Of a stretch of 64,000 bases of DNA, positions 36,505 to 64,000 are shown piece after piece. Source of the stretch: Candidatus Latescibacterota bacterium (lineage in GTDB: Bacteria > Latescibacterota > UBA2968); assembly GCA_965204745.1 (NCBI GenBank), contig OZ242010.1:4928001-4992000 (forward strand), in the 5' to 3' direction. Numbering within the stretch: position 1 is the first letter of the stretch; every line of letters starts with the position of its first letter. Made by a program: the position numbers and the translations under genes. Below the pieces are notes generated by a model. The model searched no databases, was not told the origin of the DNA, and saw nothing but the letters and a program-made list of their open reading frames with translations.

Positions 36505-36643
36505 GCGACGTCCTTTCTGGGAAGTGGTCAGTGGTCAGTGGGAACAGGTGAGACGCAAGACGGGAGAGGCAAGAGGGCCGCCCAACGCCCAAATGTATTT
36601 TTGCATTGCCATAGCCAAATGTATGAACGGAGTCGCCAAAATT

Positions 36644-42191: not shown

Positions 42192-42408
42192 TTCTCTCTC
42201 CTTATTCTTTTTAGAAGAACCGCCCAGTTGTATCCCGCTCCATCTATTCGTCCACTCGGACGGACACAGGGGCCGCGCCCAAAAAGGTGAGAGGCAAGAC
42301 GTGAGAAGGCCACCCCCCTTGCATCTTCGGACGAGCACAGGGGCATCGCCCCTCCATCTGCGCCCTCTGCACGATCTGCGAACCGCCTTTGGGCGGCGAT
42401 GGGCGGGG

Positions 42409-46009: not shown

Positions 46010-46215
46010 GCACCACCGCCCAAGTGCGTGCCCCGCTCATCCACCCCGCCACCCGTGCGTCCCCTTCCCGACACCGCCCCGCCAAGTGCGATCCCATCCG
46101 CTACCCTACCCCGCCGTGTGCGTGCCCTTCCGCTCCCCCCATCCGCCGTGTGCGTTAACCCCGTCTTTTCCCTCTCCCGTCTCACCTCTTGCCTCTCCCG
46201 TCTTACCTCTTACCG
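46010..46215. repeat. Degenerate ~30-bp C-rich tandem repeat followed by a CCTCT-type heptamer array
   Basis: Five CCGCC..GTGCG units, then cctctcc cgtctca cctcttg cctctcc cgtctta cctctta. Confidence 0.7.
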
Positions 46216-58725: not shown

Positions 58726-58861
58726 CAGAGGATCGCACGGACAACGGATAACGGACAACGGACCGCTGACCACTTGGGCGGGGGCGGGGTTGCCTCACCT
58801 CTCCCATCTTACGTCTCACCGAAGGGGGCTGGGCGGGGTGGGAACTGACAACTGACCATCG

Positions 58862-59602
58862 CTATTTCCCCACCGATCCAAAATACACGGCAAAGTGTTC
58901 AACGCCGTCGAGTTTGAGTGCTCGGTTCAATTCGTCATCGTTAAATGCGGCACTCGTGCATGCGCGGCAATTCACGGCCATCGCGCCCAAATACAAATTC
59001 TGCCCCACATGGCCGGCATCCAAGTGGAGGTAGCGATATCCCCTATCGCCGTAACGCCAAGTCATGCGTGCGGCCACCGCTGTCCAGATCAACGTGGCGG
59101 CACTCGTTTGGATCAATTCCGGTTGCAACGTGGTACTTGCAATCCGATCCCCAATCTCCTCAGAACGCTCAATCGCGCCCAAGGCGTGTCCCAGTGCCAA
59201 ATACCGGTACAATCCCCGCTCCAAGTTCTGCACATTGTTGACCACCACATAGGTCTCAAATGCGTGGCGCGCGCCCGCTGATGGCACGGTGCGAAACGTC
59301 TCGCCCTGCGCCATCTCCTTCACGCCCTGCGTCGCCCAAAGCAAATACGCCAGTTCGTCCAAACGCAGGGGATCATCGAAAAACACCCGCTCGCTTTCGC
59401 GCTCGTCAATGGCCCGGCGCAAATCCATTTCCGCGGTCCCGATCTGATCGGGTTTGGGCAAGGCCACGGTCTCGCCCCGATACGGCAACTCGGGCATGGG
59501 CGGCGGTTCTCTGCGCGCCTGTCCGGTCGGTTGCAAATTCTTGAATTGCGTGCGCCGCATAAATTCCTGCCCTGCTTGCACGCGCCGTTTGCGCTTTGCC
59601 AT
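58862..59602 (-). CDS. SagB/ThcOx-family nitroreductase-like dehydrogenase
   Basis: RESER, LLWATQG, RTVPSAGARHAFETY, WRYGDRGYRY..LDAGH..QNLYL. Confidence 0.9.
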   Translation of the reverse strand: MAKRKRRVQAGQEFMRRTQFKNLQPTGQARREPPPMPELPYRGETVALPKPDQIGTAEMDLRRAIDERESERVFFDDPLRLDELAYLLWATQGVKEMAQGETFRTVPSAGARHAFETYVVVNNVQNLERGLYRYLALGHALGAIERSEEIGDRIASTTLQPELIQTSAATLIWTAVAARMTWRYGDRGYRYLHLDAGHVGQNLYLGAMAVNCRACTSAAFNDDELNRALKLDGVEHFAVYFGSVGK

Positions 59603-59667
59603 TGAATTGCCTCCTTCGTGTAAGCCTGCCGCACGGAACTGCGAAAGACATCTCGGGCGCCTTGTAG

Positions 59668-60990
59668 CTAAAATTTCAACCTCGGGAGAATGCGCGCGGG
59701 GACGAGGCGACGATATTCATCCCAATACGCGCCGTACTTTTGCCGGCAACGCTCTTCGTCGCGCCGGGCGCGATGGACCAACAAAATCGTCAGAAAAATC
59801 ACGTAAAAATAGGGCGAGAAGTGCGAAAACAGAGCTGGCACCGTCCAAAAGAAGGCCGCCAAAATTTCCGGCGCGTAGTGAAAGTGCCGCGCCACGCCCC
59901 ACCAACCGGACGCCAACAAAACGGTCTCTTTTTCCGTGCCATCTTCCGCGCGATACTTAGCGGCAATAAGCCGCGGCTTTTTCCCCCAGATCGCGCATTC
60001 GCCGCCCGTTGCCCGGACGACCTGACGTTGTCTATCGGCAAAATAGTTGATCATCACCGCCCCCATTCCTAAGACCGCGATCCCGGCCGACCACGCCATA
60101 CCCAGATGATGCGGGTGATGCACCAAGTACAAAATGGGCGATGTATAAATCGCCGGCACCCATACCAAACACCCCCAGCAAATCATAAATCCGGCTCGGT
60201 CATGCATGATGTCAATCGAACAGAGATAACCCGTTTCCCATACAAAAAATTTTACCAAATAAGTCAGCATGACGATTAGGGCCACCACCATCGAATCGCT
60301 CAAACCGCCGAGCTCGGCCTGCTTTGCCGCAAACGACAACACGATGATCGGCCACCCCATCAAGCCAAAGCGACAATTGGTGAACATCTTGACGTCCCAG
60401 CCCAATATGCGCGGGTATAGTTCCGTTCCCCAGTAATAATCGAAAATAAAATTGCCGCTCAGCCCTCCATCCGGCCCAGAGGGAAAAAACCGACCCTTGC
60501 AGTACAGCAGCAAACAGAACGCCAAACTAAAGACATTCAACGCCCCGATAATACCCGCAAAATGGTCATAGACGATAGTCGGCGCGAACCAGTTGAACAC
60601 AAAGCCACCCAAAAGGAACGCGCCCAGCGAAATCAAAAAACACGCCACGCCATTGGCGCGGTATATCGGCACATAACCCTTCGGTGTGGTCGGCCCGCAA
60701 AAGCGCCGCCCCGGCACCAAGCGCATCAACAACAACTGCACCGCAGCAAAAGTGCCGATGATTTTCCATCCAGCCGCCGTGCCCCAGACGACCGGTTCCC
60801 ATACCGACACCAGTTCAACAAAAAAACCAACGGCGAGGACCTGCTCTGCAAAGGATGCCACCGAGCCTTGGTATTTCACATTGATCTCCCACATCAACAA
60901 GACCGTCGGGAGGCAACAAATCATCAAGAACAGCGGTGCCAGCGTATAGTGAAAAAGATGCCGTGTCTTATTTTTAAGTCGAGGATCCAT
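59668..60990 (-). CDS. Sterol delta-7 reductase (7-dehydrocholesterol reductase, ERG4/ERG24 family)
   Basis: YRANG, DYYWGTELYPR, DVKMFTNCRFG, DIMHDRAGF, LASGWWGVARHFHY, HRARRDEERC..KYG..W..Y. Confidence 0.92.
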   Translation of the reverse strand: MDPRLKNKTRHLFHYTLAPLFLMICCLPTVLLMWEINVKYQGSVASFAEQVLAVGFFVELVSVWEPVVWGTAAGWKIIGTFAAVQLLLMRLVPGRRFCGPTTPKGYVPIYRANGVACFLISLGAFLLGGFVFNWFAPTIVYDHFAGIIGALNVFSLAFCLLLYCKGRFFPSGPDGGLSGNFIFDYYWGTELYPRILGWDVKMFTNCRFGLMGWPIIVLSFAAKQAELGGLSDSMVVALIVMLTYLVKFFVWETGYLCSIDIMHDRAGFMICWGCLVWVPAIYTSPILYLVHHPHHLGMAWSAGIAVLGMGAVMINYFADRQRQVVRATGGECAIWGKKPRLIAAKYRAEDGTEKETVLLASGWWGVARHFHYAPEILAAFFWTVPALFSHFSPYFYVIFLTILLVHRARRDEERCRQKYGAYWDEYRRLVPARILPRLKF

Positions 60991-61089
60991 CCGTCCATCC
61001 CGTTTTCAGCGCGCCTGTCTGGTCGGCTACAAATTCTTGAATTGCGTGCGCCGCATAAATTCCTGCCCTTCCCCTCTTGTATCTTGGAA

Positions 61090-61275
61090 GTAAGGGTTAA
61101 TTAGGAGTTGCGCCCTCGTATCGAGATAAGCCATCTTGATGCCCGGCTCGGGGAAGGCCGGCCCCTCTTGAAGGCGATGACCTTGTAGGTAAGATAGGCC
61201 CCCCGACCGCCGGGTCTATGCCGAAGAGTATCTAAGCCCCTTGAGGCTGCATATACAAGACCGGTAGACTTGGCG
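61090..61275 (+). ncRNA. Predicted IS110 bridge RNA
   Basis: Two stem-closed internal loops carrying GGCCCCTCT/AGGTAAG (target) and AGAGTATCT/ATACAAG (donor) guides; ends are approximate. Confidence 0.8.
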
Positions 61276-61344
61276 TCAATGGTCGGGACGCGACCCCGAG
61301 CGCGCACCAGATCCCTTACAACCCCCTCATCACAGGAGGCCCCC

Positions 61345-62352
61345 ATGTCGAAATCTCACCCCGCTTTTGCCGGCATTGATGTCAGTGCCCGCACGTTGTC
61401 CGTTGCCCTGTCCAGACCCGGACAAGCTGTCATGCAAGCGACCTTTGCCAATGATCCCCAAGCGCATAAGCGGTTGCTGAAGTGGCTCACGAAGGGCGGG
61501 CACATGGTCTCTGTGTGCCTCGAAGCGACCGGGCTTTACAGTTTGGGGGTGGCCTTGGCCTTGCATCGGCATCGCCACACAAAGGTCATGGTCGTCAATC
61601 CCAAAGCGATGAGCAAGTACGCCCAAGCCTGCATGCAACGGGCGAAGACGGATGCGAAGGATGCGTTGTTGATCCTCGACTATGCCGAGCGCATGCCTTT
61701 TGTGCCTTGGCAAGCGCCGAGCGAGCAACGGCTTCAACTGCAAGCCCTCACCAGACGCATTGACCAACTCAAGCAGGAGATCATCCGCGAACAGAGCCGC
61801 AACCACGCGCAGAGCTACCACATCCGCAGCACACGTCTCATCGCACGCGATATTCAGGTGAATATTCGACACTTCAAACGCCGGATTGCATACTTGGAAA
61901 GCCAAGCCCTCGATCTCGTTTTGCACGATGAGCCCCTCAAGCGTGCCTACCAACGCCTCTGCTCGACGCCTGGCATCGCGCAAACGAGTGCCTTGCGGCT
62001 CTTGGCCGAGTTGACCCTTTTGCCAGAGGAGATGCAACCGCCCCAGTGGGTCGCACATGCAGGCCTGGATCCCAAACCCAAACAATCCGGAACCGCCAAT
62101 CCACAAAGACGCATCTCGAAAACCGGGAATAAGTACCTCCGCCATGCCCTCTATATGCCTGCCTGGGTGGCCATCAGACACGAAGGCCATGTCAAAGCCT
62201 TCTATGACCAACTCATCGCCCGCGGCAAGAAACCTTTGCAGGCTATCGTTGCGGTGATGCGAAAGTTGCTCCATTCGATCTGGGGCATGTTGCGCCATGA
62301 CCAAGATTTTGAGGGCGAAAAATTCTATCGAATCACCCCGAAAACCCCTTGA
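61345..62352 (+). CDS. IS110 family DEDD recombinase/transposase
   Basis: GIDVS, LEATG, KTDAKDA, PGI, AGLDP..KQSG, ISKTGN..LR..LY, AVMRKL; AGGAGG RBS. Confidence 0.95.
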   Translation: MSKSHPAFAGIDVSARTLSVALSRPGQAVMQATFANDPQAHKRLLKWLTKGGHMVSVCLEATGLYSLGVALALHRHRHTKVMVVNPKAMSKYAQACMQRAKTDAKDALLILDYAERMPFVPWQAPSEQRLQLQALTRRIDQLKQEIIREQSRNHAQSYHIRSTRLIARDIQVNIRHFKRRIAYLESQALDLVLHDEPLKRAYQRLCSTPGIAQTSALRLLAELTLLPEEMQPPQWVAHAGLDPKPKQSGTANPQRRISKTGNKYLRHALYMPAWVAIRHEGHVKAFYDQLIARGKKPLQAIVAVMRKLLHSIWGMLRHDQDFEGEKFYRITPKTP

Positions 62353-62417
62353 CCTTTTAAGAGAGTATCTTACCTCTTGCCTCTTGCGTCTCACCTCTCC
62401 CGCCCCCCCTCTCCCGC

Positions 62418-64000
62418 CTATTCGTCCATCTGCGCTTTGGTCGCTACTGCGCGCACGGCTTTGATGCCCAGCCGATCTTCGAGTTGTTTCAAGTACAAAC
62501 TGCGCGGGCGCACCTTTTGCCCGTGCGATTCCCAATAGCCATCCGCGCGTGCGTGCCACCCGTCTCGCTTTTCGCCGATGCAACCGATGGCGTAATTCTG
62601 CGAGGTCGGCGGCTTTTGCACCACAAAGCTCTCTGCTTCGCAATTCCACAACACCTTTTGGGCACCTGCCCAACCGTGCCCCGTGCCCGAGCTTTGCCTG
62701 TCCTGCACATTGATCGCATTGCCCTTTACAACCACATTGTCAAACAGCGTGCCCACAGACCAGCGGTGATGCGGCCCGGTGTCGGAATGCGCGATGTCTG
62801 CCACGCAATCGACAAACGCATTTGGCCCCGGCACCCGCGCGTGCAACACGTAATCGTGCCGGCCGCGGCGGGTATAACACCGCTGTACCAGCGACAACTG
62901 CCCGTGAATGGGAAACGAATACCGCCGGGAGCCCGTGATGAGCGACACGGGATCCAAACACTGGCAATCCTGCACGGTCATCCATTTGGCGTGCGTCCCA
63001 ACCGTCACGCACGCATACCCAAAGTGAACCGCGGTCACATTGCGCGCCCATGCATTTTGCACCTTTGAAAACGCGACAAAATTCCAAGCGTGGTCTTCAT
63101 CGACAAACTCGCCCTCGCGCCGGCGGTCTTTTTGACGCGCATCAAATTCCGATATGCCGCGCAAATGCTCGATGCCCACCTGTTCGATCCGCCCGGGATA
63201 CGCGTACTTGTACACCCACCCGCCGCCGTATTCGCGTTCAAGCGCATTGCCCATCGGCGCGTCAATGGTCAGCCGATTGCCATCGATCTCGGTCACGATG
63301 CGGTCAAACCGAAAATCGTAAGCCCCTGGTCGCCATTGCTGAACCTTGGGATGGGCCATCTCGATGCGGTCCATCCCAATCGCGGCGATCCACTTTTCAG
63401 TGCTCGGACGATGCACGATCACCGCGTCGCCCACTTCAAAATGAGACGCATCCGCGACCTCAAACGTCCGCGTTCCAACCGCAACGTATTCATCGACTAT
63501 CGCCTGTCGCGTTCCGTCCACCTCTCGCGGCCCTCGCCCCTGCCCTTCAAAGGTGATCAATGTGCGCTGTCCTTTTCCGGTGGCGATCAACGCGGTGCCA
63601 TCCTCGGCCGCGCCCTCTCCGCGCAATACCACGCCACTCGCCCGGATGTGGAGCGTGCCGCCAATCCGATACGCGCCGCGCCTTAGCAACAACACCCCGC
63701 GAAATCCACGGGCGTCCAATGCGCGTTTGGACACGGCGTCAATCGCGGCTTGCAATCGGTCTGTATCATCCCCTTCTGCGCTCGGCTGAACCACCATCAC
63801 CACCGGCACATCTGGCAGGGCCACACCGCCGCCCATGTACCCGCAATGCGAAAAATCGGGAATCGCGTTTCCCCGTTCATCTGGCATGTACACCAGCCGC
63901 CCATCGGCACCCGGATACACCAACCCGCTGTAATTCCCCTCGGCCCGCACAGTGCCGACGCACACCAAGACCAGTGCCAATACGCCCATAAATCCCAACA
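62418..64000 (-). CDS. Secreted pectate-lyase-like (beta-helix) carbohydrate-active protein; start at or beyond the window edge
   Basis: IPDFSHCGY.GG, DDTDRLQAAID, SGVVLRGEG, GPHHRW, GHGWAGA, PRSLYLKQL. Confidence 0.75.
   Translation of the reverse strand, partial: LGFMGVLALVLVCVGTVRAEGNYSGLVYPGADGRLVYMPDERGNAIPDFSHCGYMGGGVALPDVPVVMVVQPSAEGDDTDRLQAAIDAVSKRALDARGFRGVLLLRRGAYRIGGTLHIRASGVVLRGEGAAEDGTALIATGKGQRTLITFEGQGRGPREVDGTRQAIVDEYVAVGTRTFEVADASHFEVGDAVIVHRPSTEKWIAAIGMDRIEMAHPKVQQWRPGAYDFRFDRIVTEIDGNRLTIDAPMGNALEREYGGGWVYKYAYPGRIEQVGIEHLRGISEFDARQKDRRREGEFVDEDHAWNFVAFSKVQNAWARNVTAVHFGYACVTVGTHAKWMTVQDCQCLDPVSLITGSRRYSFPIHGQLSLVQRCYTRRGRHDYVLHARVPGPNAFVDCVADIAHSDTGPHHRWSVGTLFDNVVVKGNAINVQDRQSSGTGHGWAGAQKVLWNCEAESFVVQKPPTSQNYAIGCIGEKRDGWHARADGYWESHGQKVRPRSLYLKQLEDRLGIKAVRAVATKAQMDE

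What the first reader, a model, noticed from the sequence alone, without database searches (positions are those of the whole stretch)
61069..62405. IS110 element with a readable bridge RNA programmed against a genomic heptamer repeat
Seen: the 5' non-coding region forms two stem-closed loops. Loop 1 (stems CGGGG/CCCCG and GGCC/GGCC) holds GGCCCCTCT (61160-61168), a 7/9 match to the left flank ttCCCCTCT, and AGGTAAG (61187-61193), the reverse complement of the right flank CTTACCT. Loop 2 (stem CGCCGGGTCTA/TAGACTTGGCG) holds AGAGTATCT (61225-61233), identical to the element's right end, and ATACAAG (61253-61259), the reverse complement of core plus left end CTTGTAT. Circularisation would join TTGACC to TATCTT 18 bp apart, forming a promoter. 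The empty site rebuilds a 7-mer array (cctctta cctcttg cctcttg cgtctca cctctcc), related to arrays at 46170-46215, 58790-58820, 36548-36574 and 42286-42306. Established: this is the IS621 bridge-RNA architecture, and from memory the IS621 donor (ACAGTATCTTGTAT) is nearly the same; IS621 targets REPs. Inference: a bridge recombinase retargeted to a heptamer microsatellite as a safe harbour.
Basis: partly seen in the sequence, partly recalled or inferred. Interest (0 to 1): 0.85.

Follow-up and report, generated by a model that had tools for sequence, protein, structure and literature searches.

The report
Bridge-RNA insertion sequence targeting heptamer repeats
This is a jumping gene of the IS110 family that carries its own guide RNA, whose loops match the element's ends and the seven-base repeat arrays that hold nearly all of its 52 genomic copies; it is a very clean natural example of a known mechanism, not a new one.

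Summary
The element proper is 61078-62370 (1293 bp). It has a 335-aa IS110-family recombinase whose DEDD and Ser residues align with those of IS621. Its 267-nt non-coding left end folds into two stem-closed internal loops.

Loop 1 carries GGCCCCTCT and AGGTAAG, which match the flanks CCCCTCT|TACCT. Loop 2 carries AGAGTATCT and ATACAAG, which match the element's own right and left ends.

The genome holds 52 full-length copies; 30 are identical and 51 have an intact ORF. In 43 of 52, both guides pair fully with the flanks, counting G-U wobbles. Four guide variants coexist, and each changed guide base is matched by the flanks of its own copies (Fisher p about 3e-4 at two positions).

Perfect sites are 80% occupied, wobble sites 21%, and two-mismatch sites 5%.

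Relatives in two sister genomes and seven more distant ones keep the RNA scaffold (14 compensatory pairs) but carry different guides that match their own flanks.

The heptamer arrays are abundant only in this genome and one sister genome.

Verdict: a recently active IS621-type bridge recombinase system, a new member of a known kind. RNA expression, circle formation and recombination were not observed.

The parts
61069..61077 (+). Left half of the target: TTCCCCTCT. The 7 nt at 61071-61077 equal the left target guide. CT at 61076-61077 is the left copy of the core.
   Evidence: 42 of the 46 copies with C at the guide's 4th base have C at the matching flank position.
61078..62370 (+). IS110-family insertion sequence, 1293 bp, counted with the right-hand CT core.
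   Evidence: blastn finds 52 full-length copies whose similarity ends at these bounds.
61080..61085 (+). TATCTT, the -10-like hexamer of the promoter that would form only on the circle junction.
   Evidence: No sigma-70-like site lies upstream of the RNA in the integrated state.
61118..61142 (+). 5' stem-loop of the predicted bridge RNA (10-bp stem).
   Evidence: MFE and centroid fold. Its covariation was not tested.
61148..61206 (+). Target-binding loop module. Outer stem 61148-61153 with 61201-61206; inner stem GGCC 61156-61159 with 61197-61200; distal stem-loop 61171-61184.
   Evidence: RNAalifold and pair counts.
61160..61168 (+). Left target guide GGCCCCTCT. The last 7 nt have the sequence of the top strand of the left flank plus core, so they would pair with the bottom strand.
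   Evidence: Variants GGTCCCTCT, GGTGCCTCT and GGCGCCTCT co-vary with their flanks.
61187..61193 (+). Right target guide AGGTAAG, the reverse complement of core plus right flank (CTTACCT).
   Evidence: Variants AGGTGAG and AAGTAAG co-vary with their flanks.
61194..61195 (+). Candidate handshake guide of the target loop (AU). It is complementary to the last two bases of the right end before the core (A, T).
   Evidence: the first base pairs in 13 of 13 rows and the second in 12 of 13. The definition comes from passages of PMC11208158.
61209..61274 (+). Donor-binding loop module. Basal stem 61209-61216 with 61267-61274 and 61219-61223 with 61262-61266; distal stem-loop 61235-61248.
   Evidence: 9 of the 13 pairs of this helix show compensatory changes.
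61225..61233 (+). Left donor guide AGAGTATCT, identical to the element's last 9 nt (right end plus core).
   Evidence: 51 of 52 copies match at all 9 positions. Copy c1297030 has one change in the guide.
61253..61259 (+). Right donor guide ATACAAG, the reverse complement of core plus left end (CTTGTAT).
   Evidence: 51 of 52 copies. The exception has a 1-nt insertion in its left end.
61260..61261 (+). Candidate handshake guide of the donor loop (AC). Its first base is complementary to the target base just before the core (T).
   Evidence: across 13 rows from 9 genomes the first base pairs with that target base in 10 by Watson-Crick and 2 by wobble, with 1 mismatch. The pairs seen are A-T, G-C, U-A and G.T.
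61345..62352 (+). Recombinase CDS, 335 aa, with an AGGAGG ribosome-binding site at 61334-61339. Contains the DEDD RuvC-like domain and the Tnp domain.
   Evidence: Pfam PF01548 at 1.2e-24 and PF02371 at 4.8e-20. NCBIfam NF033542 scores 213.8 bits against a cutoff of 140. D12, E60, D103, D106 and S248 align with IS621 D11, E60, D102, D105 and S241.
62349..62354 (+). TTGACC, the -35-like hexamer in the right end. It overlaps the stop codon.
   Evidence: TTGAnn is kept at a 17-nt spacing from TA[T/C]CTT in 9 related-family rows.
62362..62370 (+). Right end AGAGTAT plus the right copy of the CT core (62369-62370).
62371..62405 (+). Right half of the target (TACCT, 62371-62375), running into the heptamer array (62373-62400 by the regex).

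Best explanation
The feature is an IS621-type IS110-family insertion sequence, a bridge recombinase with a bridge RNA, that was active recently. The inferred cycle runs as follows. A copy is released as a circle, which joins the right end to the left end. That junction brings a -35 (TTGACC) in the right end within 18 nt of a -10 (TATCTT) in the left end, and an RNA of roughly 200 nt is transcribed from the left end. The RNA's first internal loop pairs with both strands of a particular junction between two heptamers of a genomic microsatellite, CCCCTCT|TACCT with CT as core. Its second loop pairs with the element's own joined ends, AGAGTATCT|TGTAT. A recombinase tetramer (DEDD plus Ser248) then exchanges strands next to the CT core and inserts the element without a target duplication. 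Point changes in the two target guides have produced at least four guide alleles in this one genome, each found at the heptamer junction it matches. Shown here: the anatomy, the conserved catalytic residues, RNA structure covariation, guide-flank pairing in 43 of 52 copies, guide-flank covariation within and between genomes, and graded site occupancy. Inferred by analogy with IS621: transcription, the circle, the strand-exchange chemistry and the handshake step.
For: Protein:
- It carries the IS110 domains and fits the IS110 models.
- phmmer against PDB chains gives ISCro4 at 7.6e-40 and IS621 at 5.8e-36, with all five catalytic residues aligned (residue roles).

RNA:
- The consensus fold of 17 homologues from 10 genomes gives two stem-closed internal loops.
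- 93.3% of cells are paired against 85.0% in shuffles, and 14 of 30 pairs show compensatory changes. None of 500 shuffles reaches any of the five measures, and slid controls give 30-54% paired.

Guides in this genome:
- There are 52 full-length copies.
- In 43 of 52, all 7+7 guide positions pair with the flanks, counting G-U/G-T wobbles.
- Donor guides match the ends in 51 of 52.
- RTG base 2 against flank base: G with C 43 and T 1; A with C 2 and T 4; two other bases left out; p=3.1e-4.
- LTG base 4 against flank base: C with C 42 and not-C 4; G with C 1 and not-C 5; p=2.7e-4.
- The single copy with guides GGTCCCTCT/AGGTGAG sits at TCCCTCT|CACCT, a perfect match.

Dose-response in occupancy:
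- The perfect site is occupied in 20 of 25 instances.
- The U.G wobble site is occupied in 17 of 82.
- The two-mismatch site TACCTCT|TACCT is occupied in 4 of 87.

Recency:
- 30 of 52 elements are identical over their whole length.
- 51 of 52 ORFs are intact.

Other genomes:
- G018 has 18 copies with guide CTCGCCTCT and RTG complement CTCCC. Their flanks are [C/T][G/A]CCTCT|CCC.., and 17 of 18 lie in arrays.
- G016 has 7 copies with guides TCC[T/C]CCT and CTTTTCT, at sites ..CC[T/C]CCT|TTTCT.
- Seven further families have an RTG that matches their own right flank at 6-7 of 7 positions in most cases.
- Guides score 12.9 of 14 on their own target against 9.4 of 14 on targets of other groups.

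Handshake bases and the junction promoter are conserved across families.
Against: - No RNA, circle junction or empty site was observed. No RNA run was listed, and the contigs laid on the region showed only array-derived joints.
- The first two bases of the nominal 9-nt left guide (GG) never pair with the flank, so only 7 nt are used. A 4-nt TCTT is shared by both junctions, so the crossover point and loop register rest on analogy and on the donor guide.
- Nine of 52 copies do not pair fully. Four have two mismatches at the far end of the left half, two have three mismatches in the right half, two have one mismatch, and c602776 has three.
- The cross-family score allows wobble and the best register among C/T-rich sequences, so its background is high: the maximum among foreign targets is 14 of 14. 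One row (G097) had its right end mis-located.
- The covariance test sequences are kin, so shuffle counts overstate independence.
- The junction spacer is 18 nt here, against 17 in nine related-family rows.
Confidence: 0.9

Rival explanations
1. The site choice is made by the protein or by DNA-DNA similarity between the element's ends and the target. On this view the loop-flank matches are a by-product of low-complexity C/T-rich sequence.
For: The target and donor share TCTT at the crossover, and both have a 7-nt periodicity. C/T-rich guides give a high background in the cross-family matrix, 9.4 of 14.
Against: The guide strings lie 83-116 nt inside the left end, not at the termini. Single-base guide variants are matched by the flanks of their own copies. 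Relatives with unrelated guides, including A/G-rich ones in G128, G120 and G152, match their own unrelated flanks. The scaffold around the guides is conserved while the guides vary.
Confidence: 0.03
2. The element family is a fossil. The guide-flank matches record past activity, and the copies no longer move.
For: No circle junction, empty site or RNA was seen. The junction spacer is 18 nt rather than the 17 of relatives. Fourteen fragments exist.
Against: 30 of 52 copies are identical over 1293 bp and 51 of 52 ORFs are intact. The perfect sites are 80% filled. Contigs from four other runs carry the element with variants at guide positions 61162 and 61188.
Confidence: 0.05
3. The causal arrow runs the other way, or both ways: the heptamer arrays were spread or expanded by the recombinase system rather than being a pre-existing landing pad.
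For: The three-unit array pattern is abundant only in G000 (743 hits) and G018 (329 hits) among 41 genomes; the others have 0-5. These are the two genomes whose elements carry array-matching guides. G016 has the element but non-array guides, and one array hit. The donor junction is itself a tandem heptamer that shares TCTT with the array unit.
Against: Arrays (622) far outnumber elements (52 plus 14 fragments), and most have no element sequence nearby. The known chemistry makes no duplication. G000 and G018 look like closest kin: an accessory ERG4-like gene is shared at 92% identity and was found in no other of the 21 genus genomes. One origin of the arrays in their common ancestor therefore explains the co-occurrence. 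Replication slippage is enough to explain array length variation.
Confidence: 0.05

Closest known systems
IS621 of Escherichia coli (IS110 family; bridge recombinase with bridge RNA; PMC11208160, PMC11208158)
   Same: - Two-domain recombinase with aligned D, E, D, D and S residues.
- RNA encoded in the left end, with a 5' stem-loop and two internal loops.
[quoted passage not shown]
- CT core.
- The donor agrees at the eight positions named in passages of PMC11208158.
- AU handshake bases.
- Promoter split across the joined ends.
- The target is a dispersed genomic repeat.
   Different: - Distant protein (phmmer E 5.8e-36) and no detectable DNA similarity to any E. coli genome.
- The right target guide is 7 nt here, against 4 in IS621.
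- Only 7 of the nominal 9 left-guide bases pair.
- The target is a junction inside tandem heptamer arrays, not a REP element.
- 52 copies and four guide alleles coexist in one genome.
- The host belongs to Latescibacterota, judged from the record titles of same-genus relatives.
ISCro4 transposase (PDB 9t56)
   Same: It is the best-scoring solved relative of the recombinase: E 7.6e-40, aligned over residues 7-326.
   Different: Only the protein was compared. Its RNA and target were not examined here.
ISPpu9 / ISPpu10 of Pseudomonas putida (IS110 family, inserted in REP sequences; abstracts seen in the listing)
   Same: These are multi-copy IS110 elements whose copies all sit in one family of dispersed intergenic repeats.
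   Different: Their target is a palindromic REP rather than a tandem heptamer array. No sequence comparison was made here.
Short tandem heptanucleotide repeats of cyanobacteria
   Same: They are dispersed intergenic arrays of 7-nt units present in hundreds of copies in some genomes and absent from relatives.
   Different: They occur in a different phylum with different units, and I know of no link to IS110 elements. This is a resemblance for the target only.

Membership tests
IS110-family bridge recombinase system (IS621 type) | N-terminal DEDD RuvC-like domain (PF01548) and C-terminal Tnp domain (PF02371) | tested here: met
   87.3 bits (cutoff 29) and 72.2 bits (cutoff 21.3). NF033542 'IS110 family RNA-guided transposase', 213.8 bits (cutoff 140).
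IS110-family bridge recombinase system (IS621 type) | Catalytic D, E, D, D and Ser-Gly conserved | tested here: met
   alignment: D12, E60, D103, D106 and S248-G249 fall opposite IS621 D11, E60, D102, D105 and S241-G242. The numbering comes; the PDB chain is offset by 2.
IS110-family bridge recombinase system (IS621 type) | Long non-coding left end that encodes an RNA with a 5' stem-loop and two stem-closed internal loops | tested here: met
   The left end is 267 nt (61078-61344). Folds are; consensus and pair counts (93.3% paired, 14 compensatory pairs, 0 of 500 shuffles). The 5' stem-loop rests on a single-sequence fold only.
IS110-family bridge recombinase system (IS621 type) | Loop 1 guides complementary to the two strands of the target, overlapping at the core | tested here: met
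   43 of 52 copies pair fully over 7+7 positions. The first 2 bases of the nominal 9-nt left guide do not pair.
IS110-family bridge recombinase system (IS621 type) | Loop 2 guides complementary to the element's joined ends | tested here: met
   9 of 9 and 7 of 7 positions in 51 of 52 copies.
IS110-family bridge recombinase system (IS621 type) | Guides co-vary with targets across relatives | tested here: met
   Within the genome: (p about 3e-4 at two positions). Between genomes.
IS110-family bridge recombinase system (IS621 type) | Handshake bases 3' of each right guide, complementary to the partner DNA | tested here: met
   Target-loop first base: 13 of 13 rows pair. Donor-loop first base: 12 of 13 pair (2 by wobble). 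The second bases are weaker: 12 of 13 and 4 of 13 (one of the 4 by wobble).
IS110-family bridge recombinase system (IS621 type) | The same core dinucleotide on both sides and no target-site duplication | tested here: met
   CT lies at 61076-61077 and at 62369-62370 and in 51 of 52 copies. Because TCTT is shared at both junctions, the exact crossover cannot be fixed from sequence.
IS110-family bridge recombinase system (IS621 type) | A promoter formed only across the joined right and left ends | tested here: inconclusive
   The hexamers TTGACC and TATCTT are 18 nt apart on the computed junction. The arrangement is conserved with a 17-nt spacer in relatives. No promoter-like site lies upstream in the integrated state. 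No circle or transcript was observed.
IS110-family bridge recombinase system (IS621 type) | RNA binds the recombinase and directs recombination | not testable with these tools
   This needs expression and a recombination assay.
Rfam RNA families | A match to a curated covariance model | tested here: not met
   among 4227 families, only four chance-level matches (E 1 to 5.3, all far below gathering scores). No bridge-RNA family matched this stretch.

The most novel reading that the evidence does not exclude
The element family and a lineage-specific heptamer microsatellite have expanded together. Guide alleles arise by single-base changes and divide the different heptamer-heptamer junctions of the arrays among themselves, giving four alleles in this genome and a fifth in the sister genome. 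The arrays, which are abundant only in the two genomes whose elements are aimed at them, would then be maintained or enlarged because of this relationship. They could be a host-tolerated sink for insertions or a by-product of recombinase activity.
Probability: 0.12. Interest if true: 0.6.

Novelty: new member of a known kind. Interest (0 to 1): 0.4.

Why it matters
This is a natural experiment on how bridge RNA guides evolve and how strict they are in vivo. One closed genome holds 52 insertions, four guide alleles, and a countable pool of free and occupied sites. Those counts give an occupancy gradient of 80% for perfect sites, 21% for sites with one rU.dG wobble, and 5% for sites with two distal mismatches. 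They also include a few insertions that match on only one half of the target, the behaviour described in a 2026 preprint on IS621 (abstract read). Sister genomes show the same scaffold re-aimed at other sequences over short evolutionary distances. The element also adds tandem microsatellite arrays to the kinds of repeat known to be used by IS110 elements, and it extends the IS621-type system to Latescibacterota. For tool builders, it offers a compact 335-aa orthologue with a 7-nt right guide. None of this changes the known mechanism.

Tried and rejected
- Rfam scan of 60900-62600 at E up to 10: only chance-level hits, and no bridge-RNA family matched.
- blastn of the left end against E. coli genomes to fetch IS621 itself: no match, so no direct RNA-to-RNA comparison with IS621 was possible.
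Figures and supplements are not held or are closed, and they may contain it.
- Sequencing runs: no RNA holder was listed.
- Contigs of four runs laid on 60700-62700: no circle junction. The two joints reported carry extra heptamer letters and come from arrays, so they are not evidence of an empty site or a circle. No piece spans the whole stretch.
- Orthologous empty site: the G018 locus syntenic with 58863-61013 and 62414-63421 has a 454-bp unrelated spacer, with no array and no element. It neither supports nor refutes precise insertion.
- Replication-strand bias: the cumulative GC skew has no clear two-arm shape, so no conclusion was drawn. Copies are 18 on the + strand and 34 on the - strand.
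- Six-frame open-frame test of the safe-harbour idea: 39 of 52 rebuilt sites are spanned by an open frame of at least 150 codons, against 459 of 500 random sites. This does not discriminate in a 56.5% G+C genome with stop-poor arrays. The crude ORF-call tests were used instead, and they are only approximate.
- G106 locus L090: a partial protein match whose upstream region lacks the RNA scaffold. It was left out of the alignment.
- L079 and L114 failed the scaffold regex. The G097 right end was mis-located and not found.
No structure prediction or complex prediction was run, because the family assignment did not need one.
- Literature on IS110 elements aimed at microsatellites or heptanucleotide repeats, and on Latescibacteria with IS110: searches and passages found nothing on this point in the held library.
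Full report
**What is there**

The sequence at 60900-62700 contains one long ORF on the + strand, 61345-62352 (335 aa). It carries the two Pfam domains of IS110 transposases: PF01548 at 1.2e-24 and PF02371 at 4.8e-20. It passes the NCBIfam model named 'IS110 family RNA-guided transposase' with 213.8 bits against a cutoff of 140.

Against all PDB chains, only two proteins match: the ISCro4 transposase (7.6e-40) and the IS621 transposase (5.8e-36). In the IS621 alignment, D12, E60, D103, D106 and S248-G249 of this protein stand opposite IS621 D11, E60, D102, D105 and S241-G242. Passages of PMC11208158 describe those residues as the composite active site.

The genes on either side are unrelated to the element. 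An ERG4/ERG24-like gene on the - strand starts at 60990, and a 526-aa ORF with no Pfam match on the - strand ends at 62418.

**Boundaries and copy number**

The window lies in a closed 5.48-Mb contig. blastn of 61069-62405 against it gives 66 hits. Of these, 52 run from the first 10 to beyond base 1300 of the query:
- 37 at 99.1-100% identity
- 8 at 95.7-96.0%
- one at 95.5%
- one at 94.7%
- five at 88.6-89.1%

Similarity between copies stops at TGTATCTTGG on the left and at AGAGTATCT on the right. The element is therefore 61078-62370, with CT on both sides (61076-61077 and 62369-62370) and no target duplication.

30 of the 52 copies are identical over their whole length, and 51 of 52 keep a 335-aa ORF. 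One copy has a 1-nt insertion and a 262-aa frame.

All four strings are at the stated coordinates.
- Loop 1 lies between the stems 61149-61153/61201-61205 and 61156-61159/61197-61200. It holds GGCCCCTCT on its 5' side and AGGTAAG on its 3' side, with a small stem-loop (61171-61184) between them.
- Loop 2 holds AGAGTATCT on its 5' side and ATACAAG on its 3' side, with a stem-loop at 61235-61248 between them.

Single-sequence folds recover these helices, but their z-scores are modest (-2.25 and -0.99). The fold alone would therefore not be convincing.

[quoted passage not shown] That is exactly the sense relationship seen here. The 5'-side strings read like the top strand (CCCCTCT of the flank; AGAGTATCT of the right end). 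The 3'-side strings are reverse complements (of CTTACCT and CTTGTAT).

**The decisive test: flanks of all copies**

For each of the 52 copies I extracted guides and flanks.
- 45 copies carry the window's guides. Their sites are CCCCTCT|TACCT (20), CCCCTCT|TGCCT (17, where the guide U faces a G), TACCTCT|TACCT (4), CCCCTCT|CCCGT (2), CCCCTCT|TACTT (1) and CCCCTCT|TGCCC (1).
- One copy (95.5% identity) has guides GGTCCCTCT and AGGTGAG. It sits at TCCCTCT|CACCT, so both changed guide bases are answered by the flanks.
- The 89% subfamily has GG[C/T]GCCTCT and AAGTAAG. It sits at CGCCTCT|TACTT (2), CACCTCT|TACTT, TACCTCT|TACTT and CGCCTCT|TACCT.

Counting wobbles as pairs, 43 of 52 copies pair at all 7+7 positions.

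Two guide positions can be tested as contingency tables.
- Right guide base 2: G goes with flank C in 43 and T in 1; A goes with C in 2 and T in 4 (p=3.1e-4). Two copies with another flank base were left out.
- Left guide base 4: C goes with C in 42 and not-C in 4; G goes with C in 1 and not-C in 5 (p=2.7e-4).

The donor guides match the element ends in 51 of 52 copies.

The exceptions:
- four copies with two mismatches at the distal end of the left half
- two with three mismatches in the right half
- two with a single mismatch
- c602776, a mosaic whose left end resembles the 89% subfamily and whose remainder resembles the 96% one. It has three mismatches and may have acquired its guides by recombination after insertion (inference).

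**Occupancy**

The perfect 12-mer is expected 0.73 times in the genome from base composition.
- Perfect site: 20 occupied and 5 free (80% occupied).
- Wobble site: 17 occupied and 65 free (21%).
- TACCTCT|TACCT: 4 occupied and 83 free (5%).

This gradient is what guide-directed choice predicts.

**RNA structure across relatives**

The element's DNA matches 4 of 41 related genomes, counting the window's own: G000, G016 (about 84% identity), G018 (about 79%) and G036 (partial). The protein matches 12 of 168 genomes of the phylum at E up to 1e-40. A scan of genome contigs gave the same two sister genomes plus one Gemmatimonadota contig. The record titles of the sister genomes name Latescibacteria/Latescibacterota.

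I aligned the RNA region of 17 sequences from 10 genomes. RNAalifold returns the two-loop architecture. On that structure:
- 93.3% of cells are standard pairs, against 85.0% in shuffles.
- 14 of 30 pairs show changes on both sides.
- None of 500 shuffles reaches any of the five measures.
- Sliding the partners by 1-3 columns drops pairing to 30-54%.
- Most compensatory changes are in the basal stem of loop 2 (9 of 13 pairs).
- The loop-1 stems are nearly invariant, so they say little either way.

These sequences are kin, so the shuffle counts overstate independence.

**Guides in the relatives**

The scaffold is conserved, but the loop strings differ and follow each family's own flanks.
- G018, 18 copies: the 5' side is GCTCGCCTCT and the complement of the 3' side begins CTCCC. 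The flanks are [C/T][G/A/T]CCTCT|CCC.. in 16 of 18, and 17 of 18 lie in heptamer arrays.
- G016, 7 copies: guides TCC[T/C]CCT and CTTTTCT or CTTTCCT. The sites are ..CC[T/C]CCT|TTTCT in 6 of 7. They are not in heptamer arrays, and three of them share a palindromic-looking flank.
- In G128, G101, G120, G036, G152, G151 and the Gemmatimonadota contig, the 7-nt right guide matches core plus right flank at 6-7 of 7 positions in most cases.

A cross-table of guides against targets gives 12.9 of 14 for own targets (25 rows) and 9.4 of 14 for targets of other groups (544 pairs). The background is high because wobble and the best register were allowed among C/T-rich strings. Some foreign pairs reach 14.

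**Handshake bases and promoter**

Passages of PMC11208158 define two bases 3' of each right guide that pair with the partner DNA after strand exchange.
- Here the target-loop pair is AU, the same as the IS621 wild type named in that paper. It faces the A and T that end the right end. It pairs in 13 of 13 rows (first base) and 12 of 13 (second base).
- The first donor-loop base varies (A, G, U, C) with the target base before the core (T, C, A). It pairs in 12 of 13 rows, two of them by wobble.

On the computed junction of right and left ends, TTGACC (62349-62354, overlapping the stop codon) lies 18 nt from TATCTT (61080-61085). Nine rows from related families keep TTGAnn, a 17-nt spacer and TA[T/C]CTT. 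In the integrated state, no sigma-70-like site lies upstream of the RNA. This fits the published model, in which the promoter exists only on the circle (passages). Neither the circle nor the RNA was seen here.

**The target**

A regex for three or more units of C[CGT]TCT[TC]N finds 622 arrays totalling 24.5 kb, with a median length of 28 nt and a maximum of 343 nt. 480 of them lie outside crude ORF calls that cover 85.5% of the genome. Of the 52 insertions, 29 have both flanks outside such calls and 4 have both inside. A six-frame open-frame test did not discriminate.

A three-unit pattern is abundant only in G000 (743 hits) and G018 (329) among 41 genomes; all others have 0-5. G018 is also the only one of 20 genus relatives with the ERG4-like neighbour gene, at 92% identity. 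The two genomes are therefore probably closest kin, and the arrays a shared trait of that lineage.

The element of G016 is closer in sequence to that of G000 than the G018 element is, yet it is aimed elsewhere. The guides have therefore been re-aimed at least once within this small clade.

**Open points of anatomy**

The first two bases of the nominal 9-nt left guide (GG) face CT, TT, CA or AT and never pair, so the working guide is 7 nt. In G018 nine bases pair, and the paired stretch ends one column nearer the distal stem.

Both junctions share TCTT. Placing the core at CT therefore rests on the donor guide, on the right target guide and on analogy with IS621.

**What it is, and how new**

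Every family feature that sequence can test is met. Expression, circle formation, RNA binding and recombination are untested. It is a member of the IS621-type group of IS110 elements, new in host and in target class.

Four searches of the held library found no report of an IS110 element aimed at a microsatellite, and none in Latescibacteria. The mechanism itself, natural guide-target covariation and repeat targeting are all in print (PMC11208160, passages). The interest therefore lies in the unusually complete natural data set, not in a new principle.

Noticed in passing
window 36549-36576 (-), 42288-42308 (-), 46171-46212 (+), 62373-62400 (+); genome-wide in G000: A dispersed family of tandem heptamer arrays (units like CCTCTTG, CCTCTTA, CCTCTCC, CGTCTCA). 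There are 622 arrays of 3 or more units in this genome, mostly outside crude ORF calls. The pattern is abundant only in this genome and in G018 among the 41 searched. Their function is unknown. Some occur as inverted pairs that could form hairpins.
   Followed up: partly
G000:C1:1121577-1124187 (- strand): Two full copies, one of the 99.8% class and one of the 96% class, lie head to tail and are separated by only the 7 nt TACCTCT. One evidently inserted into the array unit next to the other.
   Followed up: no
G000:C1:2972653-2972844: A miniature derivative: the left end up to element position 183 (through the right donor guide) is joined directly to the last bases of the right end, inside an array. 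It keeps the target loop but lacks the recombinase and the 3' strand of the donor-loop stem.
   Followed up: no
G000:C1:921764, 1263479, 2089406, 4373185 (fragments): Older truncated left ends (88-97% identity) are each preceded by the same unrelated repeat and by TTCCCCCT. This half-site resembles the guide of the G016 family rather than the array sites. They may be relics of an earlier guide allele.
   Followed up: no
G000:C1:602776-604086 (locus L111): A mosaic copy. Its left end, including both target guides, resembles the 89% subfamily, and the rest resembles the 96% subfamily. Its flanks do not fit its guides (3 mismatches) but equal the site of copy c1297030's guide type.
   Followed up: partly
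L096, L101, L086 (G036): In this more distant family, the left guide ends in AT and two of three copies have AT, not CT, before the left end. The right end and right guide still use CT. This may be a core mismatch between target and donor.
   Followed up: no
L036 (G016), left flank: One G016 copy sits in a sequence that, on the opposite strand, reads as a ribosome-binding site (AAGGAGGAG) followed by ATG. The insertion is next to a gene start.
   Followed up: no
window 61162 and 61188: Contigs of other public runs carry the element with C>T at 61162 and G>A at 61188. These are the same two guide positions that distinguish the guide alleles within this genome.
   Followed up: partly
window 59668-60990 (-): An ERG4/ERG24 sterol-reductase-like gene (Pfam 1.1e-73) in a Latescibacterota-type genome. 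Among 21 genus genomes, counting the window's own, it was found only here and in G018 (92% identity). The element lies about 87 bp upstream of its start, between it and the preceding gene on the same strand.
   Followed up: partly
window 62418-63998 (-): A 526-aa ORF with no Pfam family at E up to 0.001. It is conserved at about 92% DNA identity in G018.
   Followed up: no
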